Notes: a model not told the origin generated them from the letters alone. A stretch of DNA of 64,000 bases from Bryobacteraceae bacterium (GCA_049520275.1 JBEKPY010000032.1:26277-90276), one strand, 5' to 3'; shown: positions 14,801 to 42,075, numbered from the stretch's first letter. Numbers and translations are program-made.

Positions 14801-17800
14801 GCGCCGGAACATTGTGTGGCGGAACTTTCATCTGCCGCAGCATCTCCATCTGCTGGGCGATGATCTGTTGCACCATCCTGTTCTGCTCCGCGATTACCCG
14901 TTCGATCACCGTCGGCGCGTCCGCCGACGACGGTTCGGAAATGGGCGGCGGCGCCGTGGCGGGAAGAACCCGATCGATATGATCGGCCAGGGCTTTCAGT
15001 GTGGACAGATCCTCGAAGAAGTTGCGGATGGCGAGTTTCACGCCATACTCGCGTTCGATGGACTGCAGGACGTCCATCAGCACGAGTGAGTCTGCGCCCA
15101 TTTCAAGGAATGGTGTTGTCTCGCCGACGTCCGCGGCATCGGCGTGAAGGAACGTCGCGACGACGGCTTTCAGCCGGAGAAGAATGCTCTCACGGCGCGG
15201 CCCGACGATCGCATCTTCGTGTTTGGCTGGAGCCTGCACGGTCCTCGGCGATTCCTTGAACCAGATCCGAACGCGGTGGAATGGACGATGTGGCAACGGC
15301 GGCCGGCGGCCTGGCTGGCCAGCAAGAGCTGGCTGCGGCGCTTCCTCGAGCAGCACATGCGCGTTGGTCCCGCTCGCTCCGAACGCACTGACACCCGCGA
15401 TGCGCTTTCGCTCGCCGCGCTTCCAGGGAGTCTGTTCGCGACAGATTTCCAGCGGCAGCTCACTCCAGGAGATCAGGGGGTTGGGATTGCGCACGTGCAG
15501 ACTCGCAGGCAGTTGCTCATGCTGGAGCGCCAGCAGAACCTTGATCACCCCCGCAACGCCCGCGGCCGATTCGGCATGGCCAATGTTCGACTTCACCGAG
15601 CCGATCCGTAGCTTCCCGGGCCGCTCCCCGCCGTCACCGAACACCGCCGCGAGAGCGCGTACCTCGATGGGGTCTCCGAGTTGCGTGCCGCTCCCATGAG
15701 CCTCGACATAGTCCACCTGGGAGGGCGCGACGACGTCTGCCAGGGCCTTCCGGAGCACCGCTTCCTGTGCCCGCCCGTTCGGAACAGTGAAGCCGCTGGA
15801 GGCGCCGTCATGGTTGACGGCCGAGCCACGAATCAGGGCGAGGATGGAATCGCCATCCGCGAGCGCTCTGGATTCCGTCTTCAGGACCACAACTCCGCAG
15901 CCCTCGCTCCGCACGAATCCATTGGCCGATTCATCGAAGCTCCGGCAACGCCCATCGGGAGAGAGCGCGTGGGTCCGGCAGACCGCCACGGTTGTTTCGG
16001 GCGCAAGGATCAGGTTCACGCCGCCGGCAAGCGCCATGCCGCATTCGCCGTTACGCAGGGCCTGGCATGCCTGGTGAATCGCGACCAGCGACGACGAGCA
16101 GGCGGTATCCAGAGCCATCGCCGGGCCGGTGAGCCCCAGAGTGTAGGATACGCGCCCGGCAGCGGTGTTCAGAGGATTGCCGGTGAAGAAGTAGCTGTCG
16201 ACGCCGTTGTTCCCGCCATTCTGCATCAGCAGATGCGCGTAGTCGTGGGTGGTGATGCCCACGAAGACTCCGGTCTGGCTGCCTTTCAGGTCCGCCGCCG
16301 GAATTCCGGCGTTCTCCAGCGCTTCCCAACTCACTTCGAGCAGCAGGCGATGTTGCGGGTCCATGCTCTCCGCTTCGCGTGGTGAAATGCGGAAAAAAGC
16401 CGGATCGAACAGGTCGACGTCGCGCAGGAAGCCGCCATGACGCGTATACATCTTGCCTGGGTCGTCCGGATTGGAACTATAGTGCTGGTCCAGACTCCAG
16501 CGCTCGCGCGGGACCTCCGAGATCGCGTCGATGCCGTCTCGCAGGACGCGCCAGTAGCTCTCACCGTCAATCGCGTCGCCGGGAAATCGGCACCCGAAGC
16601 CGACGATGGCGATGGCTTCGCTCTTTTCCGCCGGCGCCACGGGCGCTTCCACTGGCGCGTCGCCCAGAAGGTAATCCGCAACCGCCTCGATGGTTGGATT
16701 GTCGAATATCAAAGTGGCGGGGAGCGCGCGGCCCGCACAGGCTTCCAGGCGCGTGCGAAATTCGAGCGCGAGCAGGGAATCCATGCCCATGTCGAAGAAG
16801 CCCCGGTCCCGCTCCGGAAGCGTGTCTCGTAACTGCAGGACCTCCGCCGTCTCGCGCTGAAGGAAGCGAATCAGTTCGTCGCGCGACCGGGGCAGCGACG
16901 GGGTTCCCGCGGCATGGGCCGCTTTCCCCTGGTCCATTCGAGCCAGCAGGAGCCGATGTCCGCGGGCTTCATAGGAGCCTCGGAACAAAGGCCAGTTGAC
17001 ATCCGCCACGATTGTCTGAGTCTCCCCGCTGCCGAGAAGCTTTCCCAGGGCCGCGAGGGCCTTGTCGGTGGCGAGCGGATTGACGCCGGCACGCCGCAGC
17101 AGCGCGTCCGATTCCGCGGTATTCATGCCTCCTTCGGCCCAAGGACCCCAGTTGATCGTCAATGCCGGCAAGCCACGTGCGCGTCGATGATGTGCCAGAG
17201 CGTCGAGGTACCGGTTTGCCGCGGCGTAATGAGCCTGGCCGCGAGAGCCCCATACCGATGCGATCGAGGAGAAACAGACGAAGAAGTCCAGCTCCAGGCC
17301 TCGCGTCAGCTCGTGCAGTACCTGGGCGCCTTGCACCTTGGGCCGCAACACCGCGTCCCATTCGCCCGGGCCGATTTCGTCGAATGCCCGATACCCCGCA
17401 ACGCCGGCGGCATGAATGACGCCACGCAGGGCCGGCCCGCAGGAGGCGAGCAGGATATCCATCTGCTCCCGCTCGGCCACGTCGGCGCGCTCGCAACGCA
17501 CCGCGATTCCCCGCGCTTCGAGGGCAGCAATAGCGGCGCGCGCCTGGTCGGTCCGCGGCCCTGCTCTTCCCACCAGAATCAGTTGCCGCGCTCCCCGATC
17601 GGCGAGCCAGCACGCGACTCGCAACCCCAGGGCTCCGAAGCCACCCGTGACCAGGTAAGCGTGGCCGGGCGCGATCTTCAGTTCAGCGGCGCTTCTCGGC
17701 TCCGCTTTCGCCAGTCTGGGAACCAGGCGTTTGCCGCCTCGGAAGGCAACCAGGTCCTCAGGACCGCCGGAGGCGATCTCATGGATCAGACTTTCGACCT

Positions 17801-19697
17801 CACCGGGAGCCGAAGCCGCATCCAGATCGATCGCCGCGCCCGCGAGTTCGGGATGCTCCAGAAACAACACCTTCGCCAATCCCGTCAGGGGCGCCTGTGC
17901 GACACCATCCAGTTCGGGCGCGCCGGCGGCTTCCGTCGCGCCGCGGGTGATCAGCCAGATCCTCGATGGTTTTTCTGTTCGTCGCGCTGCCGCTTGCGCC
18001 ATGTCCAGCAACAGATGTGCGCACCCGGGATCGTCCAGCCCTTTCATGAAGACGATCCGGTCGAAAGATCCCGCATGGAGCGACTCGACGTCCTCCCCCA
18101 GAACGCAGCGGATTGCTCGCGCCTCCGCAAGCTTCGCCAGATTCTCCGCCAGGTCCCCGCGATCGCGAACGATGAGCCACGATTCTTCCCCGGCCGCAAT
18201 GGAGGGCGCTGGCGGCGCCTGCTCCCAATCGACCCGATAGAACCAGTCCGGCGCCGATGCCTTCGCATTGCGCTTGCCGGCCAGTGGATAGTGCTGCCGC
18301 TGGAAGGACAGCCCTGGATTCTCTTTCGCAGGCGCCGCTTCGTTGGTTTCGGGCGGCTCCTCGACGATCGCGTGAGCGTTGGTGCCGCTGAACCCGAAAG
18401 CGCTCAGTCCGGCGATGCGCCGGACGCCCCCCCGTTTCCATTCCACCGGCGCAGCGGCCACGCGAACGCGGATCTCATTCCAGGAAATGTGCGGATTGGG
18501 CTCGCGAAAATGCAGGCTCGCGGGAATACGGCCATTCTGAAACGCCAGCAGAATCTTGATCAGCCCGGCGATGCCGGATGCCGGTTCGAGGTGCCCGATG
18601 TTCGTTTTCACCGAACCGGTCCACAGGGCGGCTTCGCTATCGCGACCCTGGCCGTAAGCGCTCGCCATGGCTTCGATCTCGATCGGGTCTCCCAGGGATG
18701 TGCCGGTACCATGCGCCTCCACGTATCCGACCTGGCGCGGCTCCAGCCCCGCATCCGCCAGGGCGCGTTGAATGACCGAGCGCTGCGCCGCCACGCTGGG
18801 AACGGTCAGCCCGCCGCTCGGTCCGCTGTGGCCAACGGCGGTGCCGCGAACGATTCCGAGAATATTGTCCCGGTTGCGAACCGCATCCGCCAGGCGCTTC
18901 AATACCACCACGCCACAACCCTCGCCACGGCTGTACCCGTCGGCCGACGCATCGAAGGATTTCGACAGTCCATCCGCGGACAACATGTGCGCCCGTGAAA
19001 ACGTGGCCATGACGGCGGCAGACAACATCAGATGAACGCCACCCACGAGCGCGACTTCGCTCTCACCGGACCGAAGACTCTGGCACGCGAGATGGAGGCA
19101 CACCAGCGACGAGGAACACGCCGTGTCGACGGCCATGCACGGACCGGTCAGTCCCAATAGATAGGACAACCGTCCTGCCGCGGCATTGAGGGCGCTGCCC
19201 GTGCCGGCGTAGGCCCCGGCTTGCTCGAGCTCCGCACCCAGCAACACGGCATGATCGAAACAAGTGATTCCGAGAAAGGTGCCGACCGGGCGTTCGTAAA
19301 GGCTGCCGGGCGCAAGCTTCGCGTTTTCGAGCGCCTGCCAGGCCACTTCCAGCAGTATCCGTTGCTGCGGGTCCATGCTGGCGGCTTCCCGAGGCGAGAT
19401 TCCGAAAAACGGAGCATCAAAATCCTCGATGCCTTCAATAAAACCACCCCTCCGGACCGGCATCGAAGTGGCATCCCAACGCTCGGCCGGAACATCCCGG
19501 ATCGCACAGATACCCTTGTCCAGAAGCTGCCAGAAGGACTCGGGACTATTGCACCCTCCCGGAAACCGGCAGCTCATTCCAATGATGGCGATCGGCCCGT
19601 TTCTCGAGGCACGCAGCGCCTCGATTTCCGCGCGCCTCTGCCGCAGCTCTTCGAGAGCCGTCTTCAGCGTTGCGGCGTGATTTGGATTGGAACTCAT
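8892..19697 (-). CDS. Hybrid PKS/NRPS megasynthase: KS-KR-ACP-KS-ACP-aminotransferase(AMT)-C-A-T-C
   Basis: Track ORF 8892..20183; the first 162 codons look like junk, and the likely start is the ATG at 19697 (MSSNPNHAATLKTALEELRQRRAEIEALRAS docking helix). Two KS domains with Cys/His/His intact (TACSSSL, VEAHGTGT / VEAHGSGT, NIGH), no AT. KR (Rossmann VTGGFGALG... YAAAN). Two ACPs (GMDSLLALEF, GADSLVLMDV). Class-III PLP aminotransferase / GSA-aminomutase-like domain (FSNSGTEAVMAAMRLARA, YGKVAGGGLPIGVVAG). Then C (HHIISDGAS), A (YTSGSTGKPKGV), PCP (FFEIGGNSL), C (HHIVTDGVS). Confidence 0.9.
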   Translation of the reverse strand: MSSNPNHAATLKTALEELRQRRAEIEALRASRNGPIAIIGMSCRFPGGCNSPESFWQLLDKGICAIRDVPAERWDATSMPVRRGGFIEGIEDFDAPFFGISPREAASMDPQQRILLEVAWQALENAKLAPGSLYERPVGTFLGITCFDHAVLLGAELEQAGAYAGTGSALNAAAGRLSYLLGLTGPCMAVDTACSSSLVCLHLACQSLRSGESEVALVGGVHLMLSAAVMATFSRAHMLSADGLSKSFDASADGYSRGEGCGVVVLKRLADAVRNRDNILGIVRGTAVGHSGPSGGLTVPSVAAQRSVIQRALADAGLEPRQVGYVEAHGTGTSLGDPIEIEAMASAYGQGRDSEAALWTGSVKTNIGHLEPASGIAGLIKILLAFQNGRIPASLHFREPNPHISWNEIRVRVAAAPVEWKRGGVRRIAGLSAFGFSGTNAHAIVEEPPETNEAAPAKENPGLSFQRQHYPLAGKRNAKASAPDWFYRVDWEQAPPAPSIAAGEESWLIVRDRGDLAENLAKLAEARAIRCVLGEDVESLHAGSFDRIVFMKGLDDPGCAHLLLDMAQAAARRTEKPSRIWLITRGATEAAGAPELDGVAQAPLTGLAKVLFLEHPELAGAAIDLDAASAPGEVESLIHEIASGGPEDLVAFRGGKRLVPRLAKAEPRSAAELKIAPGHAYLVTGGFGALGLRVACWLADRGARQLILVGRAGPRTDQARAAIAALEARGIAVRCERADVAEREQMDILLASCGPALRGVIHAAGVAGYRAFDEIGPGEWDAVLRPKVQGAQVLHELTRGLELDFFVCFSSIASVWGSRGQAHYAAANRYLDALAHHRRARGLPALTINWGPWAEGGMNTAESDALLRRAGVNPLATDKALAALGKLLGSGETQTIVADVNWPLFRGSYEARGHRLLLARMDQGKAAHAAGTPSLPRSRDELIRFLQRETAEVLQLRDTLPERDRGFFDMGMDSLLALEFRTRLEACAGRALPATLIFDNPTIEAVADYLLGDAPVEAPVAPAEKSEAIAIVGFGCRFPGDAIDGESYWRVLRDGIDAISEVPRERWSLDQHYSSNPDDPGKMYTRHGGFLRDVDLFDPAFFRISPREAESMDPQHRLLLEVSWEALENAGIPAADLKGSQTGVFVGITTHDYAHLLMQNGGNNGVDSYFFTGNPLNTAAGRVSYTLGLTGPAMALDTACSSSLVAIHQACQALRNGECGMALAGGVNLILAPETTVAVCRTHALSPDGRCRSFDESANGFVRSEGCGVVVLKTESRALADGDSILALIRGSAVNHDGASSGFTVPNGRAQEAVLRKALADVVAPSQVDYVEAHGSGTQLGDPIEVRALAAVFGDGGERPGKLRIGSVKSNIGHAESAAGVAGVIKVLLALQHEQLPASLHVRNPNPLISWSELPLEICREQTPWKRGERKRIAGVSAFGASGTNAHVLLEEAPQPALAGQPGRRPPLPHRPFHRVRIWFKESPRTVQAPAKHEDAIVGPRRESILLRLKAVVATFLHADAADVGETTPFLEMGADSLVLMDVLQSIEREYGVKLAIRNFFEDLSTLKALADHIDRVLPATAPPPISEPSSADAPTVIERVIAEQNRMVQQIIAQQMEMLRQMKVPPHNVPALEPHRPSPSAAPVAPERAAPLLPWGAPVSPATQGLSRTQREHLEDLVARYNGRTRRSREMVQESRGVLADSRATVGFRFSTKEMLYPIVGVRAQGSKLWDVDGNDYVDFTMGFGVHLFGHQPEFINRAIEEEFRRGVELGARSDLVGEVATLFTRLTGHQRVAFSNSGTEAVMAAMRLARAATGRTKIVIFTHSYHGHSDGTLAAARVQGGKTETVAVAPGVPAGAVEDIAVLEYGAEEALEEVRALGGELAAVMVEPVQSRNPSLQPGDFLRELRRITTECGAALIFDEMITGLRVHPKGAQGWFGIEADLATYGKVAGGGLPIGVVAGKARFMDGIDGGMWQYGDGSFPAAERTAFGGTFCQHPLSMAAARAVLRYLLDDKGATQDRLNKRTAEFAEQLNGSFEEGNVPIRVAHFGSMFRFEFSSNLDLFFYHLLEKGIYIWEWRTCFLSTAHTEEDLRRFAAAIDETIAELRCGGWLPDARVDAAVRVPLSEAQRQLWLLSQIERGGNLAYHVNTSVELVGELDRDRLRQAIQRVIERHEALRTTIASDREQIVWPASKFKVALEDKPDSGEAMNLLEGPLFRANLVQRENSRHILSLTAHHIISDGASMALLVGEIADFYSGRNVPARPTQFREYLAAAANRMESREMQAHRDYWLAQTGPDSPSVQLPLDRARPALNTYRGGRLTQRIDSALADGLRLLARSHGCTLYATLTAVFNVLLHRITGQDDLIVGLPVTGRFSREGQSVAGYCTHLLPVRSRFDADASFRQFLLQSRQTLLDGMEHQDYPFAELLRELGPRRGAGASPLISVVFNLEPVSRFPEIPGLTLQPAEPEVRFVAFDLSVNVTDAGSELHIDCDYSSDVLEPKTVRRFLEIYETLLRAAVADPDAAISRMPLLSEPAMTALAAMWNGPVLPASAASALSLFEEQVARDPQRTAVVDRERRVSYGQLNDRAMRIAGELAKLGVRRETRVGICAGRTADLIAGLLAVWKAGGAYVPLDPEYPKARLESMLDDAGIDVLLTDRACALVLSKHAARLVFVDGEHPPAEASPATVQPQDLAYVIYTSGSTGKPKGVAITQAGLSGLVDWACSFYAPEQLRGVLFSTSVCFDVSVFEIFVPLACGGTVVIAENALDLPRLPSANEVTLVSTVPSVVPELLRSGPLPESVNTFQLAGERLLRSIVQRIYRQTAVRQVLNIYGPTEDTVYSTGAIVERDDELAPSIGRPLLNKKARILDRHLQPVPPGIAGELYIGGSGLAREYLNRPELTRERFIADPYQEGERLYRTGDLARFREDGNIEFLGRADTQIKLRGFRIELGEIEAALTLHPFVRDAIVVLREEGESALLIAYVASDHSEEEVLAPLGRHLQDRLPQYMTPARFVVLKEFPLLPNGKVDRARLPDPGVRTLYAAPRDAMEEKLAVIWREAIGKSRIGVFDNFFEIGGNSLSATRVAARIHEEMTSDLEIRGIFSHPTIAGLAREIARRGGARYEPILPTARQDTYELAPFQMRLWVQEQTGQAQGAMLPGCFLIEGNLDEELFDEAFRTLIRRHEILRTVFPALEHRPRQKVLAPDESRFAAARFDASGAGDPEAEAVRILQREASPAMDLATGPLLRVTLVRLGGMRHLCACAMHHIVTDGVSIEILIDEFKQAYDALADGRTSNLEPLPIHYKDYAAWLNELLAGERGADMRTYWLHKLAGELLPLEFPSDVPRSEARGYRRQSYRFQLGADQTRQVDVIGRRHGASQFMVMLAVLKTLLYRSTGSDDIVVGSPLAGRVRTELQNQIGPYLNVVALRTTVAGSDPFDILLDRVRETTLEAHANQLYPLHRIVEQLGVKRSFERNPLFDVGFTLQNQRLARRENGSRRLRISEKAYPELEATAAEAMTDFWILAEPTGEVIDMNVVYNGSLFQESTVRRLAEGFQTILNYAANDGGVRLHSIPLDPVQPRQTVKVAIDLAFHTKSRGKTP

Positions 19698-19705
19698 GGC
19701 GCGAT

Positions 19706-22700
19706 CTACGGACGTCGTGCGATCTCCTCTTCGACGAGAGCCGCCAGTTCGTCGTCGGTGAGCGACGCCCCTTCCCCGGCTGCGGCGGCCATGGCGCGCG
19801 GAGATTCCAATGTCAGAACTTCCGACAAGAGATATCCCGCCAGCGCGTCGAGCGTCGGATAGGCAAATAGTAAAGTCGCCCGCAGCGGACGGCCCAGGGA
19901 CGCTTCCAGCCGCGTCTTCAATTCCAGAGCCAGGATGGAGTCGAGACCCAGGTCGAACAAACCCTGGCGTGGAGGAATCGCCTGGGAGTCCTTCAGCTTC
20001 AGCGCGTCTCGAACCAGGTTCGCAAGCTGTAAAAGCAGGAACTGGCGACGCTCGCCGGCGGGCATCTCCGTCAAACGGAGCATCAGTTCGCTCGGCCCGG
20101 CGGGACGATCCGTGACGGGCATCATCTGGGAAAGGAACATGGAATTGCGCGCGGCGGGATCGAAACGGAAGAAGCGCTCCCAATCGATGTTGGCGACCCC
20201 GACCTGAGTCCGGCCGCTGCGCATAAGAATCTCAAGGATCCCGAAGCCGGTTTCCGGGGGCAGGGCCTCAACTCCAAGGTGCGCGAGCTTTGCGTGCGCG
20301 AGACGGCCGTACTCCGTGGCAGCGTGGCCGATCTCCTTCCACGGTCCCCAGTTGATGCTGAGCGCGGGGCGGCCCTCGGCGCGGCGCTTCCATGCCAGCG
20401 AATCCAGGGCGCTGTTCGCGGCGGCGTAGTTTCCCTGACCGGGCATGGGCACCAGCGAAGCCATGGACGAAAACATCACGAAGTAGTCGAGGGGATCATC
20501 GCGCGTGGCGTTGTGGAGGTTCCATGCGCCGTTCATTTTCCCCGAGGCGCTACGCTCGAAGCGCGTCCAGTCCTGCGCGCGGAGCAGGGCGTCGTCGAGT
20601 GTCCCCGCCAGATGGAAAACACCGCGAATAGATGGCATCGTGCGCCGTATCGCGGCAAGAGCGGCTGAAGTTTCCCGCTCGCTGCCGAGGTCGGCCTGGA
20701 AGACAGGGGCGCTTCGCGAGATCGATACGACATTCCCCGCCCCACGCTCGCGCAACCACGCCGCGAGCCGGGTGCCGATTCCGCCGGTTCCGCCGGCGAT
20801 CACATAGGTCCCGTCGGCCGCCAACGCGAGGGGAGCATCCTGGGAAACCGATCCCTCCGCCTGCAACCTGGCCACATGAAGCCCACCGCGCCGGACGCCA
20901 AGCAGGTCTTCGCTTCCGCAATCGCGAATCGCCGCGAGAAGTTCCCGCGCCGCCTCCTGCGGACTCGATAGAGGATCGAGGTCTACCAGCCCTCCCCAGA
21001 ACTCGGAGTGCTCCACCTTGATCGTGCATCCGAGTCCCCAGAGCTGAGCCTCCGTCACGCTCCCAGCGTCTCCATCGAGCACCGGCATGGCGCCTGTCGT
21101 CGCGATCCACAGGCGAGCGTCCTCTCTCAGCTCATGCCGGGCCAGAGACTGCGCCGCCTGAAGCAGGCCCTCCAATCCGTTGCCGCCGAGATAAACAACT
21201 CGCTCCGCCAGCGATTCATCGGGGATTTGGCCGGCACGCCGGCAGGTTCCCCCCGAGCCGCGAATGAGCGCTTCCAGTTGCGCCGCGATGTCGCGGCTGT
21301 CTTCGAGAATCAGCCAGTCTCCCGCATCGGCGCCCCGCGCCGCGGTCCTGGATACCGGGATCCACGCACGCCGGTAGAATTGATAATCCCGCTGCGACTG
21401 CAACGGAGCCGCGGAACTGCGCATGCGCTGAAGGCGAAGCCCGCGGATTTCAAAGAGCAGCGAACCGTCCAGACCGTAGACGGAAACATCCCCTTCCCGA
21501 ACTTCGGATGAACCGCCCGCACCCAGCACGGCGTGACTCCACGCTGGCTGGGGCGTCGCTGTTACCACGCGCAACTCCCGAACGCCGGCAGGAATGTAAA
21601 TCGAATCCTCCAACAGATTCGCTGGCAGCGCGGCCAGCGCCACCCGGCTGCAAGCGTCCAGAAATCCGGGATGAACGGTGTAGACCCCGGAACCAGTGTC
21701 TGTCGCCTGAATCCTGCCCAGAGCCTCCCCGTCACGCCGCCAGATTCTTCCAATGCATTGGAGTTGTTCGTCTATCTGAAGCCCGTAGCTCCGCAGCTTC
21801 TCGTGAAACGCGGTTCCCGGCCATTCCTCAGTGCAGCGGCTCTGTATCGTGGCCGGATCGAATCGCTGCGTGGCGGGAGGTGGCGCGGGAAGCGCCGAAG
21901 TGTCGTGCAAATCCTTGAGGCGCGCCAGGTGCTGGAGATTGCTCAGGATGAGATTCGCATCGGGGCCGAAATCCAGCAGGCACGCAATCTCCGTCGCGCC
22001 AATCGATTCCAGGCGCTGCACCAGCGGGAGGCACGTTTCCGGTGTGCCGATCAGTCCGCGCGACTCCGCAAAGCGATCATAGAGGAACTCCACGAACTCG
22101 CTCAAATCGCTCGGACTCAGCGTCCGTACATCCACGTTCTGGCCACGGCTGCGCGCGAGGCCATTCAGCAGGCCGATATTGTTCTGAATGTAGGAGCAGA
22201 ACGGTTTCCTGGCCAGTTGGCGCACCTCCGGCGCGTCGGCGCCCACGAAGGTGTGAAGCATCACGGTCACGACGCCCGATTCGGCATCGTACCCCGCCTG
22301 CGTACGCGCTTCCCGGTATAAGCGGATCTTGCGAGCCAGTTCCTCCTCGCCCTGGTCGAGCAAATGCGTCAGGACATGCGCGCCAAGCTCGCCGGCCCGC
22401 ACATACGATTCGGCTTTGGAGGCCGCTGTTATCCAGACGGGCAGTTCGCGCTGAACCGGGGTCGGGTAGGCTCTGACAGTTGTTTCCCGCCCGAGGCCGT
22501 CCTGTGCGACGACACTCTCACCTCTCCACAAACGCCGGAGGGTGGCGATGGTGGAAGCGAGATGTTCGTAACGGTTGGAATATCGCTCGGGAAAAAACGC
22601 GAAGTCCTCCGGATTCCAACCGGGCGCAAAGGAGATTCCCACTCGGCCGCCCGACAGATTGTCCACCATGGACCACTCCTCGGCGATTCGCAGCGGATGA

Positions 22701-22999
22701 TGCAGCGGAGCCACCACACTTCCCGCCCGAAGCGAGATCCGCTCGGTGACCATCGCGAGGCTGGCATGCAGGACCGCGGGATTCGGATAGAGCGAGCCAT
22801 ACTGCGTAAAGTGCCTCTCGGGAACCCACACGCTGGAAAAGCCGTGCCGGTCGCCGAAGCGCGCACTCTCCACCACGAGACGGTACTTGTCCCCCGCCAG
22901 GGCGTCTTCACTGGCGGCAAAGAACATCAACCCGAACTTCACGAGGATGCCTCCCATTCGTCGCCTGAAGGCGCGCGCTTGCGCACAGGGACCATTCAC
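19706..22999 (-). CDS. PKS subunit: luciferase-like monooxygenase (LLM) domain - DH C-terminal hot-dog - KR - ACP
   Basis: 1097 aa, GTG start. N-terminal ~360 aa is an LLM/FMN-dependent oxidoreductase fold (KFGLMFFAAS... SVWVPERHF). It is followed by the second hot-dog half of a DH (YGLQIDEQLQ, VHPGFLDACSRVA), a KR (IAGGTGGIGTRLA, YAAAN), an ACP (LGLDSILALEL) and a C-terminal docking tail. Overlaps the upstream gene by ~90 nt in another frame. Confidence 0.85.
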   Translation of the reverse strand: MNGPCAQARAFRRRMGGILVKFGLMFFAASEDALAGDKYRLVVESARFGDRHGFSSVWVPERHFTQYGSLYPNPAVLHASLAMVTERISLRAGSVVAPLHHPLRIAEEWSMVDNLSGGRVGISFAPGWNPEDFAFFPERYSNRYEHLASTIATLRRLWRGESVVAQDGLGRETTVRAYPTPVQRELPVWITAASKAESYVRAGELGAHVLTHLLDQGEEELARKIRLYREARTQAGYDAESGVVTVMLHTFVGADAPEVRQLARKPFCSYIQNNIGLLNGLARSRGQNVDVRTLSPSDLSEFVEFLYDRFAESRGLIGTPETCLPLVQRLESIGATEIACLLDFGPDANLILSNLQHLARLKDLHDTSALPAPPPATQRFDPATIQSRCTEEWPGTAFHEKLRSYGLQIDEQLQCIGRIWRRDGEALGRIQATDTGSGVYTVHPGFLDACSRVALAALPANLLEDSIYIPAGVRELRVVTATPQPAWSHAVLGAGGSSEVREGDVSVYGLDGSLLFEIRGLRLQRMRSSAAPLQSQRDYQFYRRAWIPVSRTAARGADAGDWLILEDSRDIAAQLEALIRGSGGTCRRAGQIPDESLAERVVYLGGNGLEGLLQAAQSLARHELREDARLWIATTGAMPVLDGDAGSVTEAQLWGLGCTIKVEHSEFWGGLVDLDPLSSPQEAARELLAAIRDCGSEDLLGVRRGGLHVARLQAEGSVSQDAPLALAADGTYVIAGGTGGIGTRLAAWLRERGAGNVVSISRSAPVFQADLGSERETSAALAAIRRTMPSIRGVFHLAGTLDDALLRAQDWTRFERSASGKMNGAWNLHNATRDDPLDYFVMFSSMASLVPMPGQGNYAAANSALDSLAWKRRAEGRPALSINWGPWKEIGHAATEYGRLAHAKLAHLGVEALPPETGFGILEILMRSGRTQVGVANIDWERFFRFDPAARNSMFLSQMMPVTDRPAGPSELMLRLTEMPAGERRQFLLLQLANLVRDALKLKDSQAIPPRQGLFDLGLDSILALELKTRLEASLGRPLRATLLFAYPTLDALAGYLLSEVLTLESPRAMAAAAGEGASLTDDELAALVEEEIARRP

Positions 23000-25900
23000 G
23001 GTCCGCCAAATCCGTTCGCCGGAACACCTGGAACGAAAACGATCCGCCCGGCTGACGGTTCAGGACGGTCTGCATTTCAGCCTGGGAGCCGGCCTCGAAG
23101 AACACCGGCTGGTGAAGCTGTAAGTCGGAAACTTGGTAGTGTGAGCCCGGCGTTGTTTCGGACGCCGCCCGCAAGGCTATTTCGACGTAGGCGGAATACG
23201 GCAGTACCGCCGCACCCATCAGGCAATGGCCCTGTATGTAGTCCGTGCTCCCCGGTATTCGCGATCGCCAGACGTACGTCTCCGGCAGATGCGCGAGCCC
23301 TTCCATGCGCTCCCCAAGGAGAGGGTGCGGCTTCTCCGCGGCTTTCGACACGAACCCCGGAGCGGCGTCGATCCAATAGCGCTCGCGTTGGAACGGATAG
23401 GTGGGGAGGCCCGCAAGCCGCTGGCGGGAAGACCCGCAATCCACCGCGCGCCAATTCACCTCGCTGCCTCGCATGTACAGCTCGCCGAGGCTCTCCAGCA
23501 ACGTGCTCCAGTTCCCGCGGTGCTGATCGAGGCTGGCCAGCCAGGCGTGCTTTTCCGGTGCAATGCACCTCTTCCCCATGGTCAGCAACATTGGTTTCAC
23601 ACCGATTTCCAGAAAGGCATCGACCCCTGCGCCAGCCAGGAATTGCATTGCCGCCATGAATTGCACAGGCTCCATGGCGTTGCGGCTCCAGTACCCGGCA
23701 GTCGCAAGCTCGGCTCCGGCTGGGCCGCCGGACACGGTGGATACCACCGGCACCGAGGGGGCCCGGAACCTCACCATACGAGCCGCAGCTTCGAACTCGG
23801 TCAACATAGGCCTCATCAGCGGCGAGTGAAACGCATGGGAAACGGAAAGAGGCGCGGTGTGTGCACCGGAGCGCTCCAGCGCCGCTGCAATCTCCTGCAC
23901 GGCCCGCGATTCGCCGGAAATCACCACCTGCCGGGGACCGTTGATCGCCGCGATCGACACCGCGTCCGCATGGCGCGCCACCAGGTCGGCGACCCGGTCC
24001 TGTCCCGCCAAAACAGACAGCATCGCTCCGTTGCGGCACAGTGCCTTCGTCAAAGCCGCGCGTCGAGCGACTAATATGAGGCCATCCTCGAGGCTGAACA
24101 CGCCAGCCGCACAGGCCGCCGCGTATTCTCCAATGCTGTGGCCCATGACGATGGAGGGTTCGATTCCCCAGCTTTTCCACATCTCGGTAAGAGCGGCTTC
24201 CATCGCGAACAGAATCGGCTGGGTCCAGACCGTTTCGTCGATTCGCGACGGTTGGCCGGGTGGCGCAAACAAAACCTCCAGCAGCGAGCCTTCCGAGTGA
24301 GGCCGCAGGATTTCGGAGCAGCGGTCGAGCGTTTGCCGGAAAACCGGCTGGGTGTCGTACAACTCGCGGCCCATCCCGGCGTATTGCGACCCCTGACCCG
24401 TGTAGACGAACGCGATCCGCGGCGGTCGCGACGGCGTCCGCGCATCGAAGCCCGCCCGCAGTTTCTCGAGCAGCTCTCCAGCCGACTTCGCGATCAAAGC
24501 TCTCCGCACGGGGAAGTGTTCTCTGCCGGAACAGACCGTGAAAGCAAAGTCGCCTAATGAAACTCGTGGATTGGCCGCCAGAAAGCCGACGTACTGTTTG
24601 CAGACCTCGTCGAGAGCCCGCGGAGTCCTGGCTGAAAGTGCGACCGGATGGATTCCACCTTCCGCACCGTTCGCTTTCGGCCGATTGGGCCCTTCCTCAA
24701 TCACCACGTGAGCATTGGTTCCGCCGAATCCGAAAGAACTGACGCCCGCCAGGCGCTTCCTCTCACCGCGCGGCCACGGTGTCAGCGCCAGGGGGATGCG
24801 CACGCGCGTGCCGTCTTTCGCGGCGCTCCGGTTGAGCCGCTGGAAATGCAAATGCGGGGGAATCTCCTCGTACCGCAAAGACAGCACTGTCTTGATCAAA
24901 CCGGCGATTCCGGCCGCGGCTTCCAGATGTCCGATGTTCGTCTTGACGGAACCGGCGAAAATGGAGCCAGTGCGCTCGGCCCCGAAAACGGCTTTGAGAG
25001 ATGCCAATTCCATCGCGTCACCCAGGGGGGTGCCGGTGCCGTGCGCCTCCACATAGCCGGCTTCGGAAGGATCCACGCCGCTGCGGCGCCAGGCGTCCCG
25101 CATTACGGCTTGCTGGGCCGGACCGTTGGGCGCGGTGAGTCCGTTGGTCATTCCGTCCTGGTTTACCGCCGAGCCGCGAATCACGGCCAGCACCGGATCG
25201 CCATCGCGGAGCGCATCGCTCAGGCGTTTCAGGACGACAAGTCCCGCGCCCTCGCCCCGCACGTAGCCGCTCGCGCTCTCGTCAAAAGTCCGGCAACGTC
25301 CGTCCGCGGAAAGCATCCCCGCGCGAGCGAACATCACGCTCAGGTGCGGCGCGAGGATGAGATTCACTCCGCCCGCCAGGGCCATGTCGCAGGCGCCGCT
25401 CAGAAGGCTCTCCGCCGCCTGGTGCACCGCGACCAGCGACGAGGAACACGCCGTGTCCACGGCCCAACTGGGGCCGCGAAGATCCAGCAGATAAGAGATC
25501 CTGTTGGCGGCGATGCTGAGGGCGTTGCCCGTTGCCGCATATGGCTCCGTGGCGGAAGCGTGGTTGCTCTGCAGCCTCGCGTAATCGGAGTTGCTGATTC
25601 CAATGAAAACGCCGGTTCTTGTGCCGCCCAGACTGTTCGGAGGAATCCCCGCGTCTTCCAGCGCTTCGCGGGCGATCTCCAGAAGCAGGCGCTGCTGAGG
25701 GTCCATGGCTTCCGCTTCACGCCTCGTGATTTCGAAGAACTCCGCATCGAAGTTTTCGACTTCATCCAGCAGCCCGGCCCATTCCGGAGCTGTCGAATCA
25801 GGCCAGCCGAATCTTCTGAACCGGGCTCCCAGAGCGGGAGCGATCGCGCTCCGTCCCTCCCGCAGCATGCGCCAGAACGCTTCGGGATTGCGCGCTCCCG

Positions 25901-27992
25901 GAAAGCGGCAGCCCATGCCAACGATCGCCACGGCATCTTTCCCGCCCGCTGCCGAGGGGGCCGTCGGAGCCTGGTCCATTTGCGGGGAAAGATGGCGCGC
26001 CAGCGCTTCGATGGTGGGATAGTCGTACAGCAGCGTGGCCGCCAGCGGACGGCCTAGCCACTCCTGGAGCTCTCCCGACAGCGCCACCGCGTCTTTGGAA
26101 TCGATGCCGAAGTGGCTGAACGGATCGCTTGCGCGAACGGTGTGGACCGGCACGCGCAGCTTGTCCGCCACCTTCTCCATCAGCCACGCGCGGATGGAGC
26201 CGGTATCGACGGCGCGTGGGTTGGCCTTCATGACTTTCGCCGGCGCCGGATTCTCCGGGCGGCGCCATTCCCCTGCAATCTGCAACCCTTCATCCGCGAG
26301 GAAACTCGCGCGGCAGAGGTGCCGTTGAATCTTCCCGCTGGAAGTCCTCGGGATGGTCACGGGCTGGACGAGCAACGCCGCGTATAGTTCAATGTCATGC
26401 TGCTCGGCCACCGCCCGGCGAATTGCCGCGACAGTTTCTTCGACATCCAGCTTGCGCAGATGTTCGCGTTTCACCTCGCAGACCACCACCAGCCGTTCTT
26501 CCCCGTCGATATCCACGCTCACGGCAGCGGCTGCGTTCAAAGCGAGGGCGGCGTGGCTGGCTTCCACCGTACGTTCGATATCCTGCGGGTGATGATTCCG
26601 GCCGCGGATGATGATCAGGTCCTTGATGCGCCCGGAAACGAAAAGCTCGCCGCCGAGCAGGAATCCAAGATCGCCGGTCCGCAGGAACGGACCGTCGCCG
26701 CCGGACAGCCGTGCCTGGAAGACGCGCGCAGTGTCTGCGTCGCGGCCCCAGTACCCGGCCGCGATGTGCGGTCCAGCCGCCCAGATTTCGCCAATCTGTC
26801 CGCTTTCCACGGGTGCGCAGGTATCCGGGTTCACGATCGCGAGCCGCGTACCGGCGGCTGCTTGTCCGGAACTCACCAGTCGCCGCGCGTTGGTCTCCTG
26901 CGTGGAAGCCACTGCCGCACCGGCCTCCAATGACCGGCCGTCGAACGAAGCCTCGACGTGCGGCTGATCCGGCTTGCTTCCCGTGACCAGCAGCGTGGCC
27001 TCCGCCAGGCCGTAACAGGGGTAGGGAGCCTCCGGGCGAAGCCCGCACGCGCGAAACGCCTCCACGAACCGGTGCAAGGTCTCGGCACGAACCGGCTCCG
27101 AACCGTTGTACGCAATCCGCAGGCTGCTGAGATCCAAACCCGCCTTTTGTTCCTCCGTCACCTTCCTGGCACACAAATCGTAAGCGGAGTTCGGCCCGCC
27201 CGTCGTGGTAGCCCGGTATTTCGAGATGGCCTGCAACCAGCGGACTGGCTTCTGAATGAACGAAGCCGGTTCCATCAACACCGACAGAATGCCCAGATGC
27301 AAAGGGTGCAGTGTGTTCCCGATCAAGCCCATATCGTGAAACAGAGGCAGCCAGGATGCGAAGATCGTGGTTTGATCGTGGCCAAAACAATGCCCGATCA
27401 TCTCCGAGTTGTGGAGAAGGTTTCCATGGCTCACCATCACACCCTTCGGCGAGCCCGTGGACCCGGACGTGTATTGCAGAAACGCCAGGGCATCCGGATC
27501 GAGGGAACCGTCCACCCAGAAATCGGCGTGGGGATCCTGGCCGTCGTCGGTGGCAATCCAACGCGATGTCCGGAGCCCGTCGATAACCGCCGCTTGCCGT
27601 TCCAGTCCCTCAAGCTTTGCGGCGGTGGTCAAGGCGAAAACCGCGCCGCAATCCGCAACAATCGACTGTAAGCGTGCGGCGTAACGGTTCTGCCGCGGCG
27701 GATACGCGGGCACGGCGACCGCACCGGCGTATAGGCAGCCCATGAACGCGCTGATGAACTCGAGGCTCGGTGGATAAAGAAGAAGCACCCGGTCGCCCGG
27801 GTCGACAGCCGCCTGCAGCCTCGCTCCAATTTGACGAGCCCGTGAATCCAGCGCCTGGAACGTGAGACTGCCCGATTCCACCTCGCCGTTTTCGAGAAAA
27901 ACATACGCCGTCCGATCGGGCCGGGTTCGCGCGTGATGTCGCAGCACTTCCACGAAGCTTCGAAACTCGGGATTTATAGAGAGGACCTTCAT
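22908..27992 (-). CDS. Fatty acyl-AMP ligase (FAAL)-ACP-KS-AT-DH(N-terminal hot-dog) loading/extension subunit
   Basis: 1694 aa. FAAL N-terminus MKVLSINPEFRSFVEVLRHHA... YTSGSTGSPKGVMVSHGNLLHN; ACP (GIDSKDAVAL); KS (DTACSSSL, EAHGTGT, NIGH); cis-AT (GHSIGEYAA, YTGQGSQ); then a DH first hot-dog with HxxxGxxxxP (IQGHCLMGAAVLP). The ORF ends right after this half-DH. Confidence 0.9.
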   Translation of the reverse strand: MKVLSINPEFRSFVEVLRHHARTRPDRTAYVFLENGEVESGSLTFQALDSRARQIGARLQAAVDPGDRVLLLYPPSLEFISAFMGCLYAGAVAVPAYPPRQNRYAARLQSIVADCGAVFALTTAAKLEGLERQAAVIDGLRTSRWIATDDGQDPHADFWVDGSLDPDALAFLQYTSGSTGSPKGVMVSHGNLLHNSEMIGHCFGHDQTTIFASWLPLFHDMGLIGNTLHPLHLGILSVLMEPASFIQKPVRWLQAISKYRATTTGGPNSAYDLCARKVTEEQKAGLDLSSLRIAYNGSEPVRAETLHRFVEAFRACGLRPEAPYPCYGLAEATLLVTGSKPDQPHVEASFDGRSLEAGAAVASTQETNARRLVSSGQAAAGTRLAIVNPDTCAPVESGQIGEIWAAGPHIAAGYWGRDADTARVFQARLSGGDGPFLRTGDLGFLLGGELFVSGRIKDLIIIRGRNHHPQDIERTVEASHAALALNAAAAVSVDIDGEERLVVVCEVKREHLRKLDVEETVAAIRRAVAEQHDIELYAALLVQPVTIPRTSSGKIQRHLCRASFLADEGLQIAGEWRRPENPAPAKVMKANPRAVDTGSIRAWLMEKVADKLRVPVHTVRASDPFSHFGIDSKDAVALSGELQEWLGRPLAATLLYDYPTIEALARHLSPQMDQAPTAPSAAGGKDAVAIVGMGCRFPGARNPEAFWRMLREGRSAIAPALGARFRRFGWPDSTAPEWAGLLDEVENFDAEFFEITRREAEAMDPQQRLLLEIAREALEDAGIPPNSLGGTRTGVFIGISNSDYARLQSNHASATEPYAATGNALSIAANRISYLLDLRGPSWAVDTACSSSLVAVHQAAESLLSGACDMALAGGVNLILAPHLSVMFARAGMLSADGRCRTFDESASGYVRGEGAGLVVLKRLSDALRDGDPVLAVIRGSAVNQDGMTNGLTAPNGPAQQAVMRDAWRRSGVDPSEAGYVEAHGTGTPLGDAMELASLKAVFGAERTGSIFAGSVKTNIGHLEAAAGIAGLIKTVLSLRYEEIPPHLHFQRLNRSAAKDGTRVRIPLALTPWPRGERKRLAGVSSFGFGGTNAHVVIEEGPNRPKANGAEGGIHPVALSARTPRALDEVCKQYVGFLAANPRVSLGDFAFTVCSGREHFPVRRALIAKSAGELLEKLRAGFDARTPSRPPRIAFVYTGQGSQYAGMGRELYDTQPVFRQTLDRCSEILRPHSEGSLLEVLFAPPGQPSRIDETVWTQPILFAMEAALTEMWKSWGIEPSIVMGHSIGEYAAACAAGVFSLEDGLILVARRAALTKALCRNGAMLSVLAGQDRVADLVARHADAVSIAAINGPRQVVISGESRAVQEIAAALERSGAHTAPLSVSHAFHSPLMRPMLTEFEAAARMVRFRAPSVPVVSTVSGGPAGAELATAGYWSRNAMEPVQFMAAMQFLAGAGVDAFLEIGVKPMLLTMGKRCIAPEKHAWLASLDQHRGNWSTLLESLGELYMRGSEVNWRAVDCGSSRQRLAGLPTYPFQRERYWIDAAPGFVSKAAEKPHPLLGERMEGLAHLPETYVWRSRIPGSTDYIQGHCLMGAAVLPYSAYVEIALRAASETTPGSHYQVSDLQLHQPVFFEAGSQAEMQTVLNRQPGGSFSFQVFRRTDLADREWSLCASARLQATNGRHPREVRVDVLCRQ

Positions 27993-34666: not shown

Positions 34667-34874
34667 ACGCGGGTCGGCTGATCGTGAACTCGGCGTACCA
34701 GGGATTCCCTTGGGCGTGAATCGTAGAGTACTAAAGTTTTCACCTTACCCGACCGATCACAGAGTTGTTGATCAAATGCATGAGGCAGCCAACAGGAGGT
34801 CCGCGCTGGCTGAGTTCGATCCAGATCGCAAACGGAAGTCCTTCCACCACTAAGCCCGGACAGAACGAGAGAGT

Positions 34875-35621: not shown

Positions 35622-35636
35622 GAAACAGGTGAACCA

Positions 35637-40494: not shown

Positions 40495-40584
40495 TGCTGA
40501 GGCTCCTTATGGGTGGCGGAGTTCTGTGCAGCGGTTACACTGGCTGATCCCGCCCTGGTGGGTTGGACCTGGCTGGGCCGGAGA

Positions 40585-42073: not shown

Positions 42074-42075
42074 AC

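What the first reader, a model, noticed from the sequence alone, without database searches (positions are those of the whole stretch)
21440..23360. Dehydratase domain split between two ORFs with a luciferase-like monooxygenase domain inserted between its two hot-dog halves
The FAAL subunit ends immediately after the DH first hot-dog (HxxxGxxxxP: IQGHCLMGAAVLP). The next ORF starts, ~90 nt overlapped in another frame, with a complete LLM/FMN-oxidoreductase fold and only then supplies the DH second hot-dog (YGLQIDEQ..., HPGFLDACS) before KR-ACP. The 14 residues before the first ORF's stop look like out-of-frame junk. So this is either an authentic split module or a single FAAL-ACP-KS-AT-DH(N)-LLM-DH(C)-KR-ACP polypeptide carrying a frameshift, which may be a sequencing error or a real programmed shift. 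LLM-family enzymes can hydroxylate carrier-protein-tethered acyl groups (BtrO in butirosin), so an in-module LLM could oxidise the ACP-bound chain. I am not aware of an LLM insertion inside a DH double hot-dog.
Basis: seen in the sequence. Interest (0 to 1): 0.8.

Follow-up and report, generated by a model that had tools for sequence, protein, structure and literature searches.

The report
Split PKS dehydratase hosting a monooxygenase
Two adjacent polyketide-synthase genes do share one dehydratase domain with a flavin monooxygenase domain inserted in its middle, but this is a conserved, widespread arrangement also present in the known occidiofungin antifungal gene cluster, not a sequencing error or a one-off.

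Summary
ORF1 (22908-27992, minus strand) is FAAL-ACP-KS-AT and ends just after the first hot-dog half of a PKS dehydratase (DH). ORF2 starts with a complete MupA/Atu3671-type luciferase-like monooxygenase (LLM), then the second DH half, KR and ACP.

The frameshift reading is refuted. ORF2 has its own GTG start with a GGGAGG Shine-Dalgarno site. The same DH(N)|LLM gene boundary recurs in 21 of 25 such loci across about eight phyla, with different frame offsets, in-frame stops, or gaps up to 314 nt. Four loci are fused.

Among the top 150 family representatives, 65 are split here, 16 are fused, and 3 are split before DH(N). The Burkholderia counterpart is OcfJ/OcfI of the occidiofungin cluster. 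Occidiofungin's fatty amino acid carries an extra oxygen at C6, the position an alpha-hydroxylase in this module would hit.

The best reading is an alpha-hydroxylating cis-AT PKS module. The LLM would hydroxylate the ACP-bound beta-ketoacyl chain and the KR would then reduce it. The DH halves are under purifying selection but have lost the YGP motif, so they probably act as a non-dehydrating scaffold joining the two subunits. That scaffold role is inferred, not shown.

This is a new member of a known kind, of moderate interest.

The parts
22908..27992 (-). ORF1: FAAL (aa 17-566, nt 26295-27944), ACP (25989-26186), KS (24843-25937), AT (23475-24410, GHSIGE/HAFH motifs), DH first hot-dog half, and a short tail
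   Evidence: Pfam and NCBIfam hits; translation.
22959..23327 (-). DH(N): first hot-dog half of a PKS dehydratase (HPLLG ... GHCLMGAAVLP ... WSLCASARLQAT). The catalytic His is present.
   Evidence: PKS_DH_N at 72.9 bits. Aligns to residues 4 to about 128 of CurF DH. Family alignment.
22908..22958 (-). ORF1 C-terminal tail (NGRHPREVRVDVLCRQ) and TGA stop. It is the out-of-frame reading of the ORF2 ribosome-binding site and LLM N-terminus, and it overlaps ORF2 by 35 nt.
   Evidence: Sequence. The same tail occurs in relative L004. pLDDT is below 50 in the model.
22950..22955 (-). Shine-Dalgarno-like GGGAGG, 7 nt upstream of the ORF2 GTG start
   Evidence: Sequence. Comparable purine-rich motifs lie before the LLM start in L001, L002, L006, L011, L014 and L053.
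19706..22942 (-). ORF2 (1078 aa from GTG 22942): LLM, DH second half, KR, ACP and a C-terminal docking-like tail
   Evidence: 100% identical to P0001, annotated from this start.
21914..22942 (-). LLM domain (MupA/Atu3671 family, FMN-dependent TIM barrel), the predicted alpha-hydroxylase
21413..21865 (-). DH(C): second hot-dog half (YGLQIDEQ in place of GYxYGPxF; HPGFLDACSR with Asp kept and Q/H replaced by R; IYIPAG in place of LPFxW)
   Evidence: PS-DH at 83.2 bits. Alignment to CurF and CurK DH. Family alignment.
20300..21379 (-). KR (structural plus catalytic subdomains; GGTGGIG, LDD and YAAAN motifs present)
   Evidence: PF08659 at 169.9 bits; NF045894 over aa 608-1062; sequence.
19829..20026 (-). 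ACP of the split module, the carrier on which hydroxylation and reduction would occur
   Evidence: PP-binding at aa 992-1057.
8892..20183 (-). ORF3 (longest ORF; the real start is probably near 19700): KS-KR-ACP-KS-ACP-aminotransferase-C-A-PCP-C. These are the next two PKS modules and the first NRPS module.
   Evidence: Pfam. In relative L004 the gene starts 9 nt after the ORF2 homologue.
7297..8895 (-). CmlA-like diiron beta-hydroxylase, the counterpart of OcfG
   Evidence: CmlA_N at 285.9 bits. The ocf gene table is in PMC9494966.
3415..7290 (-). NRPS subunit (A-PCP-C)
   Evidence: Pfam.
28011..30111 (-). PALP enzyme (29092-30111) and ornithine-cyclodeaminase-like enzyme (28011-29213) upstream of ORF1. 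I infer an SbnA/SbnB-like pair for diaminopropionate supply.
   Evidence: Pfam. The same pair lies upstream in L004 and is fused in A. capsulatum L002.

Best explanation
This is an authentic two-subunit, alpha-hydroxylating cis-AT PKS module that starts a lipopeptide assembly line.

Shown:
- ORF1 and ORF2 are separate genes with translationally coupled, overlapping ends.
- Together they carry FAAL-ACP-KS-AT-DH(N) | LLM-DH(C)-KR-ACP.
- This exact break point is conserved across phyla.

Inferred from characterised relatives:
- The FAAL loads a fatty acid, and the KS and AT extend it with malonate.
- The LLM uses FMNH2 from a reductase encoded elsewhere, plus O2, to hydroxylate the alpha-carbon of the ACP-bound beta-ketoacyl thioester.
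- The KR then reduces the beta-ketone, giving a 2,3-dihydroxyacyl-ACP.
- ORF3 (KS-KR-ACP, then KS-ACP-aminotransferase) would convert this into a 3-amino-5,6,7-trihydroxy fatty acid. That is the pattern of the occidiofungin/burkholdine lipid residue. The residue is then passed to NRPS modules.

Inferred with less certainty:
- The DH does not dehydrate.
- Its two hot-dog halves reassemble non-covalently into a double hot-dog. This would hold the two subunits together, since there are no docking domains at this junction, and would place the LLM beside the KR and ACP.
For: Split is real:
- ORF2 has its own SD and GTG, and the public annotation uses the same start.
- An upstream gene ending in PKS_DH_N and overlapping the LLM gene is found in Burkholderia ambifaria (ATGA), in the finished A. 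capsulatum genome (ATGA) and in an 89%-identical relative.
- 21 of 25 DH(N)-LLM-DH(C) loci are split at this point. Their geometries vary: overlaps of 1-35 nt in either other frame, in-frame stops, and gaps of 17-314 nt.
- Among 150 representatives at 50% identity, 65 are split here, 16 are fused, and 3 are split before DH(N).

One DH:
- The halves align end to end to CurF and CurK DH.

LLM function:
- The TIGR04020 match covers the whole model, and the fold matches the PuwE OX domain.
- MupA, of the same family, alpha-hydroxylates only the ACP-bound beta-keto thioester, before ketoreduction, with an external flavin reductase (PMC10952193).
- No flavin reductase was found among the window ORFs scanned.

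Product logic:
- The Burkholderia homologue (58% identity) is OcfI, listed as 'flavin-dependent monooxygenase', and the gene order and sizes match.
- Occidiofungin NAA2 is oxygenated at C5, C6 and C7 with nitrogen at C3 (PMC10897925).
- C6 is the alpha-carbon of the first extension, and the ORF3 domains fit C5-OH and C3-NH2.

DH is constrained but not a normal DH:
- dN/dS of both halves is 0.16-0.44, like AT, LLM and KR, while the LLM-DH(C) linker reaches about 1.
- HPLL is kept. The catalytic His is kept in 20/25 and the Asp in 18/23.
- YGP is present only in two Streptomyces loci, and LPFxW is degenerate.
- KS-AT-LLM-KR-ACP modules with no DH halves exist in the same LLM clade, so hydroxylation does not require the DH.
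Against: - No biochemistry exists for any in-cis DH-embedded LLM. The role of OcfI in C6 hydroxylation is an assignment by logic.
- Retention of the His/Asp dyad in most members leaves room for residual DH chemistry.
- The window encodes only two A domains and no glycosyltransferase or thioesterase in the ORFs scanned. The final product is therefore not occidiofungin and is unknown.
Confidence: 0.65

Rival explanations
1. A sequencing or assembly indel, or a real inactivating frameshift, has broken a single FAAL-ACP-KS-AT-DH(N)-LLM-DH(C)-KR-ACP gene.
For: The two ORFs overlap in different frames. Fused versions do exist in other organisms (L018, L019, L022; 16 representatives).
Against: - The break is at the same domain boundary in 21 of 25 loci from many phyla, including finished isolate genomes, with many different junction geometries.
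- ORF2 begins exactly at the LLM N-terminus (MKFGLMFF), as do 109 of the 120 best homologues, and it has an SD site.
- Natural fusions carry a 20-33 aa Pro/Ala-rich linker that is absent here.
- Both genes are under purifying selection.
Confidence: 0.02
2. Programmed +1 ribosomal frameshifting in the 35-nt overlap produces a fused polypeptide.
For: The ORF2 frame is +1 relative to ORF1.
Against: - I saw no slippery motif in the overlap when reading it by eye.
- Homologous junctions use other frame offsets, in-frame stop codons, or intergenic gaps up to 314 nt. Frameshifting therefore cannot be the conserved mechanism.
- An SD and start codon are present.
Confidence: 0.02
3. The DH is catalytically active and works with the LLM. 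One route would be KR, then DH giving a 2-enoyl thioester, then LLM epoxidation or hydroxylation and opening to the diol. Another would be dehydration of the 2,3-diol to a 2-keto product in some clades.
For: - The His of HxxxGxxxxP is kept in 20/25 and the Asp in 18/23.
- Canonical YGP and LDxxxQ-like motifs persist in some clades, for example Streptomyces and P0104.
- The halves are under purifying selection.
- It would explain why the LLM sits inside a DH.
Against: - YGP is lost in nearly all members, and in this window DxxxQ/H is DACSR.
- Five loci have lost the His.
- Related modules lack DH halves altogether.
- MupA needs the beta-keto substrate and does not act on the beta-hydroxy form (PMC10952193).
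- The occidiofungin lipid keeps both the C6 and C7 oxygens.
Confidence: 0.15
4. The DH halves are functionless relics of the gene into which an LLM gene was inserted.
For: Structural and catalytic motifs are degenerate (YGP, LPFxW). LLM modules without DH halves exist.
Against: - dN/dS is 0.16-0.44 in both halves in five independent pairs, similar to neighbouring catalytic domains, whereas the adjacent linker is relaxed.
- Both halves score well above Pfam thresholds.
- The LLM-free model is confident.
- The halves are retained across about eight phyla.
Confidence: 0.05
5. The LLM performs a different oxidation, such as Baeyer-Villiger oxygen insertion or chain shortening, rather than alpha-hydroxylation.
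For: [quoted passage not shown]
Against: - The module keeps a KR and an ACP and passes the chain to a normal KS.
- The occidiofungin lipid has an intact carbon chain with a C6 hydroxyl.
- The nearest structural relative is the PuwE OX domain of a 2-hydroxy-3-amino fatty acid pathway (PMC4219810).
Confidence: 0.08

Closest known systems
OcfJ/OcfI of the occidiofungin (burkholdine) cluster of Burkholderia contaminans and B. ambifaria
   Same: - The same two-gene module: FAAL-ACP-KS-...-DH(N) followed by LLM-DH(C)-KR-ACP, with overlapping stop and start.
- About 58% identity over LLM-DH(C).
- It is followed by a PKS/NRPS with KS-KR-ACP, KS-ACP-aminotransferase and C-A-PCP.
- A CmlA-like hydroxylase lies nearby.
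   Different: - The window comes from a Bryobacteraceae (Acidobacteriota) MAG.
- The overlap is 35 nt rather than ATGA.
- ORF3 has no AT domain.
- Only two A domains were seen.
- No glycosyltransferase, TauD, stand-alone transaminase, epimerase or thioesterase was seen in the ORFs scanned.
- SbnA/SbnB-like genes lie upstream.
- The product is therefore a different, probably smaller, lipopeptide.
MupA (mupirocin) and OocM (oocydin) alpha-hydroxylation bimodules of trans-AT PKSs
   Same: The same LLM family (TIGR04020). These enzymes are shown experimentally to alpha-hydroxylate the ACP-bound beta-ketoacyl thioester before ketoreduction. Both need FMNH2 from an external reductase (PMC10952193).
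   Different: They are free-standing enzymes recruited in trans to a KS0-containing bimodule. Here the LLM is covalently in cis, inside a DH, in a cis-AT module without a KS0.
PuwE OX domain (puwainaphycin; PDB 6ket) and the related microginin and ralsolamycin aminotransferase-monooxygenase units
   Different: It is placed next to an aminotransferase domain between the PKS and NRPS parts, not inside a DH. It falls in the other major LLM clade in my rough tree.
MtaG/MelG MOX domain inserted in an NRPS adenylation domain
   Same: Precedent for a monooxygenase domain inserted in the middle of another assembly-line domain (C-A-MOX-A-T-TE, as described in PMC11411415).
   Different: The host domain is an A domain on one polypeptide. 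The chemistry is hydroxylation of a glycine alpha-carbon leading to a terminal amide.
In-line LLM of palmerolide module 9 and KS-AT-LLM-KR-ACP modules (Opitutaceae, Vicinamibacterales)
   Same: An LLM in cis in a KR-containing module, predicted to alpha-hydroxylate (PMC8739492). These fall in the same LLM clade as the DH-embedded ones.
   Different: No DH halves flank the LLM, and the module is on a single polypeptide.
Split modules and docking in PKSs (trans-AT KS/DH, DH/KR and KS/KR junctions; the inactive DH of TerB)
   Same: Subunit boundaries occur inside a module (PMC9113145). An inactive DH is proposed to mediate protein-protein interaction (abstract of PMC8251887, seen).
   Different: Those breaks lie between domains and use dedicated docking elements. 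Here the break lies inside a domain of a cis-AT module, and no docking element is visible.

Membership tests
MupA/Atu3671 family FMN-dependent LLM (TIGR04020) | Score above the curated cut-off over the whole model | tested here: met
   479.2 bits against a cut-off of 244.45; residues 22-362 match model positions 1-341/341.
MupA/Atu3671 family FMN-dependent LLM (TIGR04020) | Luciferase-like TIM-barrel fold | tested here: met
MupA/Atu3671 family FMN-dependent LLM (TIGR04020) | FMNH2/O2-dependent alpha-hydroxylation of an ACP-bound beta-ketoacyl thioester | not testable with these tools
   Inferred from MupA biochemistry (PMC10952193) and from the C6 oxygen of occidiofungin NAA2 (PMC10897925).
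Modular PKS dehydratase (double hot-dog) | Both hot-dog halves detectable and together covering one DH | tested here: met
Modular PKS dehydratase (double hot-dog) | A contiguous domain on one polypeptide | tested here: not met
   An LLM of about 345 aa is inserted and a gene boundary lies between the halves.
Modular PKS dehydratase (double hot-dog) | Catalytic His in HxxxGxxxxP and Asp in DxxxQ/H | tested here: inconclusive
   His, Gly and Pro are present (GHCLMGAAVLP). Asp is present but Q/H is replaced by Arg (LDACSR).
Modular PKS dehydratase (double hot-dog) | GYxYGPxF and LPFxW motifs | tested here: not met
   YGLQIDEQ and IYIPAG take their places. YGP is present only in two Streptomyces loci of the family.
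Modular PKS dehydratase (double hot-dog) | The two halves pack as a canonical double hot-dog in the native, LLM-containing context | tested here: inconclusive
Occidiofungin-type lipopeptide gene cluster | An OcfJ-like gene, an OcfI-like gene and an OcfH-like KS-KR-ACP-KS-ACP-AMT-NRPS in that order, plus an OcfG-like hydroxylase | tested here: met
Occidiofungin-type lipopeptide gene cluster | An eight-residue NRPS, a xylosyltransferase, and TauD/transaminase/epimerase/thioesterase genes | tested here: not met
   Only two A domains and none of these accessory families were found in the ORFs scanned. ORFs under 250 aa were not scanned.
trans-AT alpha-hydroxylation bimodule (MupA/OocM type) | A free-standing LLM acting in trans on a module followed by KS0-ACP | tested here: not met
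   The LLM is fused to DH(C)-KR-ACP, the AT is in cis, and the next KS sits in a normal KS-KR-ACP module. KS0 status was not examined residue by residue.
Frameshifted gene or programmed frameshift | A single ORF in relatives, or a conserved slippery site and frame offset | tested here: not met
   21 of 25 loci are split, with varied offsets, in-frame stops and gaps.

The most novel reading that the evidence does not exclude
The split dehydratase is a natural split-domain docking device. The two hot-dog halves, encoded on different subunits, would complement each other non-covalently. That would join the subunits within a cis-AT PKS module and position an LLM beside the KR and ACP. I found no description of this subunit-joining principle for PKSs in the searchable literature, and it could be portable for engineering alpha-hydroxylation into other modules.
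Probability: 0.5. Interest if true: 0.55.

Novelty: new member of a known kind. Interest (0 to 1): 0.35.

Why it matters
For annotation, gene callers and first-pass readers will keep flagging this junction as a frameshift, and it is not one. An ORF that ends in half a DH, followed by an ORF that starts with an LLM, is a recognisable signature. It marks a module that very probably installs a 2,3-diol (alpha-hydroxy, beta-hydroxy) on a fatty or polyketide chain, which helps structure prediction for many orphan clusters.

For enzymology, this family offers a natural series: split at DH(N)|LLM, split before DH(N), fused, and lacking DH halves. That series could be used to ask three questions. How is an oxygenase integrated into the reducing region of a PKS? 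Can a double hot-dog be reconstituted across subunits? Can alpha-hydroxylation be transplanted?

For this window specifically, it points to an occidiofungin-like polyhydroxy beta-amino lipopeptide in an uncultured Bryobacteraceae bacterium.

Tried and rejected
- Frameshift or sequencing error: rejected on comparative grounds.
- Second homologue search, using a profile of fused junctions to enumerate fusions: it was dominated by the conserved LLM N-terminus and gave only two fused fragments (P0121, P0123).
- Third homologue search, using the ORF1 C-terminus: only 11 short fragments.
- Replacement run with unpaired rows: it gave confident domains but an ambiguous arrangement of the two DH halves.
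- LLM-excised control: it folds as a canonical DH. It shows compatibility only, not native assembly.
- Literature: Gu et al. 2011, the primary ocf cluster paper, is not held. Searches for an explicit description of an LLM inside a DH, for a split DH, and for a paper on the PuwE OX structure found nothing relevant.
- Flavin reductase in the cluster: none was found among the large ORFs scanned.

Full report
**What is there**

All relevant genes are on the minus strand.

ORF1 (22908-27992, 1694 aa) matches AMP-binding/FAAL, PP-binding, KS and AT. It also matches PKS_DH_N at aa 1556-1659 (72.9 bits, E 2.3e-20). It terminates 16 residues after the last strand of that half.

The next ORF (longest form 19706-22999) contains the following:
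- a complete luciferase-like monooxygenase (Bac_luciferase; TIGR04020 MupA/Atu3671 family, 479.2 bits against a cut-off of 244.45, model positions 1-341 of 341);
- PS-DH, the second hot-dog half, at aa 379-529 (83.2 bits);
- KR and ACP.

With the LLM removed in silico, the two DH pieces align without a gap in coverage (query 1-279) to CurF DH 3kg6 residues 4-281 (E 1.2e-21), and likewise to CurK DH. The two halves therefore make up exactly one PKS DH. The LLM sits in the linker between the two hot-dog folds.

**The junction**

The 92-nt overlap belongs only to the longest possible ORF.
- A GTG lies at 22942-22940 and encodes the first residue of V/MKFGLMFF.
- It is preceded by GGGAGG at 22955-22950, with a 7-nt spacer.
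- The identical public protein (P0001, Bryobacteraceae MAG, 1078 aa) is annotated from this start.
- ORF1's TGA is at 22910-22908, so the true overlap is 35 nt, and ORF2 is in the +1 frame.
- The odd-looking last 16 residues of ORF1 are the out-of-frame reading of the ribosome-binding site and the conserved LLM N-terminus. An 89%-identical relative keeps the same tail with two substitutions (L004).

**Split or frameshift**

Of the 120 best homologues of a DH(N)+LLM+DH(C) query, nearly all are proteins of about 1050-1150 aa with the domain set LLM, PS-DH, KR, ACP. They cover only the LLM-DH(C) part of the query. 109 of them carry the LLM N-terminal motif (consensus MKFGLMFF) within their first 45 residues.

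In Burkholderia ambifaria, in the finished genome of Acidobacterium capsulatum and in the close relative L004, the upstream gene is FAAL-ACP-KS-...-PKS_DH_N. It overlaps the LLM gene by 4, 4 and 35 nt respectively.

A scan of one genome per species gave 80 loci. With the earlier loci and the window, I found 25 DH(N)-LLM-DH(C) arrangements.
- 21 are split exactly between DH(N) and the LLM.
- Their junctions vary: ATGA overlaps (Burkholderia, Acidobacterium, Streptomyces), overlaps of 11-35 nt, in-frame stop codons (Ktedonobacteria), and intergenic gaps of 17-314 nt (Myxococcota, Lewinella, Westiellopsis).
- Purine-rich SD-like motifs precede several of the LLM starts.
- 4 are fused through a 20-33 aa Pro/Ala/Arg-rich linker. 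These are Bradyrhizobium oligotrophicum, two Vicinamibacterales MAGs and one metagenome contig. The Bradyrhizobium protein is a single 2302-aa KS-AT-DH_N-LLM-PS-DH-KR-ACP.

An exhaustive HMMER search of 1.84 billion cluster representatives found 17,652 hits at E <= 0.001. Among the best 150:
- 65 have the LLM at the N-terminus followed by DH(C);
- 16 are fused;
- 3 start with DH(N), meaning the split lies between AT and DH;
- 62 carry the LLM internally without DH halves.

A break kept at the same domain boundary through so many different junction geometries cannot be a sequencing error. It also cannot depend on programmed frameshifting.

**Known relatives and the chemistry**

The Burkholderia locus has this gene order: thioesterase, epimerase, aminotransferase, TauD, a 1474-aa gene, a 1107-aa gene and a 4473-aa gene. 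This matches ocfN-M-L-K-J-I-H of the occidiofungin cluster, where ocfI (3324 bp) is listed as 'flavin-dependent monooxygenase' (PMC9494966).

Occidiofungin's lipid residue NAA2 is a C18 acid with nitrogen at C3 and oxygen at C5, C6 and C7, the xylose being on C7. Its configuration is 3R,5R,6S,7S (PMC10897925). Counting back through the assembly line (my inference):
- C7 and C6 are the beta- and alpha-carbons of the first extension, the split module.
- C5 comes from the next KS-KR-ACP module.
- C3 comes from the KS-ACP-aminotransferase module.

The window's ORF3 is KS-KR-ACP-KS-ACP-Aminotran_3-C-A-PCP-C, the same logic. An oxygen on an acetate C2-derived carbon needs an oxygenase.

The TIGR04020 enzyme MupA has been shown in vitro to alpha-hydroxylate only the ACP-bound beta-keto thioester. 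It does so before ketoreduction, and it needs an external FMN reductase. OocM behaves similarly (PMC10952193). In-line LLMs of this family are also assigned alpha-hydroxylation in palmerolide module 9 and in PuwE (PMC8739492, PMC4219810).

**What the DH halves are doing**

They are not decaying. In five independent pairs of related loci, dN/dS is 0.18-0.40 for DH(N) in the four pairs where dS could be estimated, and 0.16-0.44 for DH(C). That is like the neighbouring AT, LLM and KR-ACP regions (0.11-0.43). The LLM-DH(C) linker is relaxed, reaching 0.8-1.1.

They are also not a normal DH. Across the family:
- HPLL is kept.
- The catalytic His is kept in 20 of 25 sequences.
- The Asp is kept in 18 of 23, with Glu in three more.
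- The YGP motif survives only in two Streptomyces loci.
- LPFxW is degenerate.
- In this window the Q/H of DxxxQ/H is Arg.

The occidiofungin lipid keeps the beta-oxygen, so no dehydration takes place there. In the same LLM clade there are KS-AT-LLM-KR-ACP modules with no detectable DH halves (Opitutus, Vicinamibacterales). The LLM therefore does not need the DH for catalysis.

ORF1 ends, and ORF2 begins, without any sequence that could form a docking domain. By contrast, ORF2 has a helical-looking tail after its ACP, ahead of ORF3 (sequence). A review of docking domains states that cis-AT subunit junctions are predominantly intermodular. The intramodular junctions it lists lie between domains (PMC9113145).

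I therefore favour a structural role. The halves would complement each other across the two subunits and hold the LLM in the reducing region. This step is inference.

**Structure prediction**

- The covalently joined DH(N)-tail-LLM-DH(C) chimera gives confident domains (mean pLDDT 89.4). Only residues 126-136, within the ORF1 tail, fall below pLDDT 50.
- With pTM 0.70 and unpaired alignment rows for the two halves, this neither shows nor excludes native reassembly.

**Evolution (rough)**

In a neighbour-joining tree of 89 LLM domains, all DH-embedded LLMs fall in one of the two major clades. That clade holds both split and fused forms. It also holds the DH-less PKS modules and a few free-standing Flavobacterium LLMs. 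The NRPS- or aminotransferase-linked LLMs (puwainaphycin and microginin type) form the other clade. Fused forms are scattered among split ones. This fits a single origin of the PKS-embedded type, with several later changes between fused and split. The tree is distance-based and has no support values.

**Verdict**

The feature is real and is an authentic split module. It is a further member of a widespread module type already present in the occidiofungin cluster. The domain-level point is that a DH is divided by an LLM and usually by a gene boundary too. I could not find this stated in the papers I could search, and the primary ocf paper was not available to me. It is moderately interesting for PKS structural biology and useful for annotation and structure prediction.

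Noticed in passing
window 8892-20183 (-): ORF3 has two KS domains but no Acyl_transf_1 hit at E <= 1e-5 (KS-KR-ACP-KS-ACP-AMT-C-A-PCP-C). The only AT in the cluster is in ORF1 and may have to serve all three PKS modules. The Burkholderia OcfH counterpart does list an AT.
   Followed up: partly
window 28011-30111 (-): A PALP enzyme and an ornithine-cyclodeaminase-like enzyme lie directly upstream of ORF1. The same pair is upstream in L004 and is fused into one 691-aa protein in A. capsulatum (L002). I infer an SbnA/SbnB-like route to 2,3-diaminopropionate.
   Followed up: partly
window 30717-33284 (+): An 855-aa ORF combines an ABC-transporter ATPase with a C-terminal SPFH/Band 7 domain. It is divergent from the cluster. 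In relative L004 the two are separate neighbouring genes.
   Followed up: no
L017 6004 and 12595 (Myxococcota MAG JBMOMJ010000048): Two successive DH(N)|LLM split junctions lie in one locus, both with the catalytic His replaced (by Tyr and by Gln). This suggests two alpha-hydroxylating modules in a row.
   Followed up: no
P0285, P0300, P0304: A third break-point variant. These proteins begin with DH(N) and continue into LLM-DH(C), so the subunit boundary lies between AT and DH instead of inside the DH.
   Followed up: no
one search hit list (e.g. P0125, P0131, P0173 of Roseimaritima ulvae): There are many proteins of about 420 aa that combine a TIGR04020-type LLM with an MbtH-like domain (PF03621). 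I did not examine this fusion further.
   Followed up: no
P0247 (3611 aa) and P0248 (2610 aa): The two best-scoring representatives each carry two LLM domains in one polypeptide, neither flanked by DH halves.
   Followed up: no
L005 (metagenome contig ERZ25039469 contig_79377): The PKS genes on this contig are broken into many short ORFs (KS in three pieces, KR and ACP separate). This looks like indel-rich long-read assembly, so its 'fused' DH(N)-LLM-DH(C) protein P0066 should be trusted less than the isolate example L018.
   Followed up: partly
window 1954-3735 (+), 1-1458 (+), 34740-35918 (-), 45730-46725 (-), 47243-48301 (-): Several long ORFs have no Pfam match at E <= 1e-5. Some may be chance ORFs in 62% G+C DNA.
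   Followed up: no
window 37453-45678 (-): Outside the cluster there is a 1013-aa protein with weak lactonase and phosphoesterase matches, two histidine-phosphatase (branch 2) genes and a secretin. These are unrelated to the finding.
   Followed up: no
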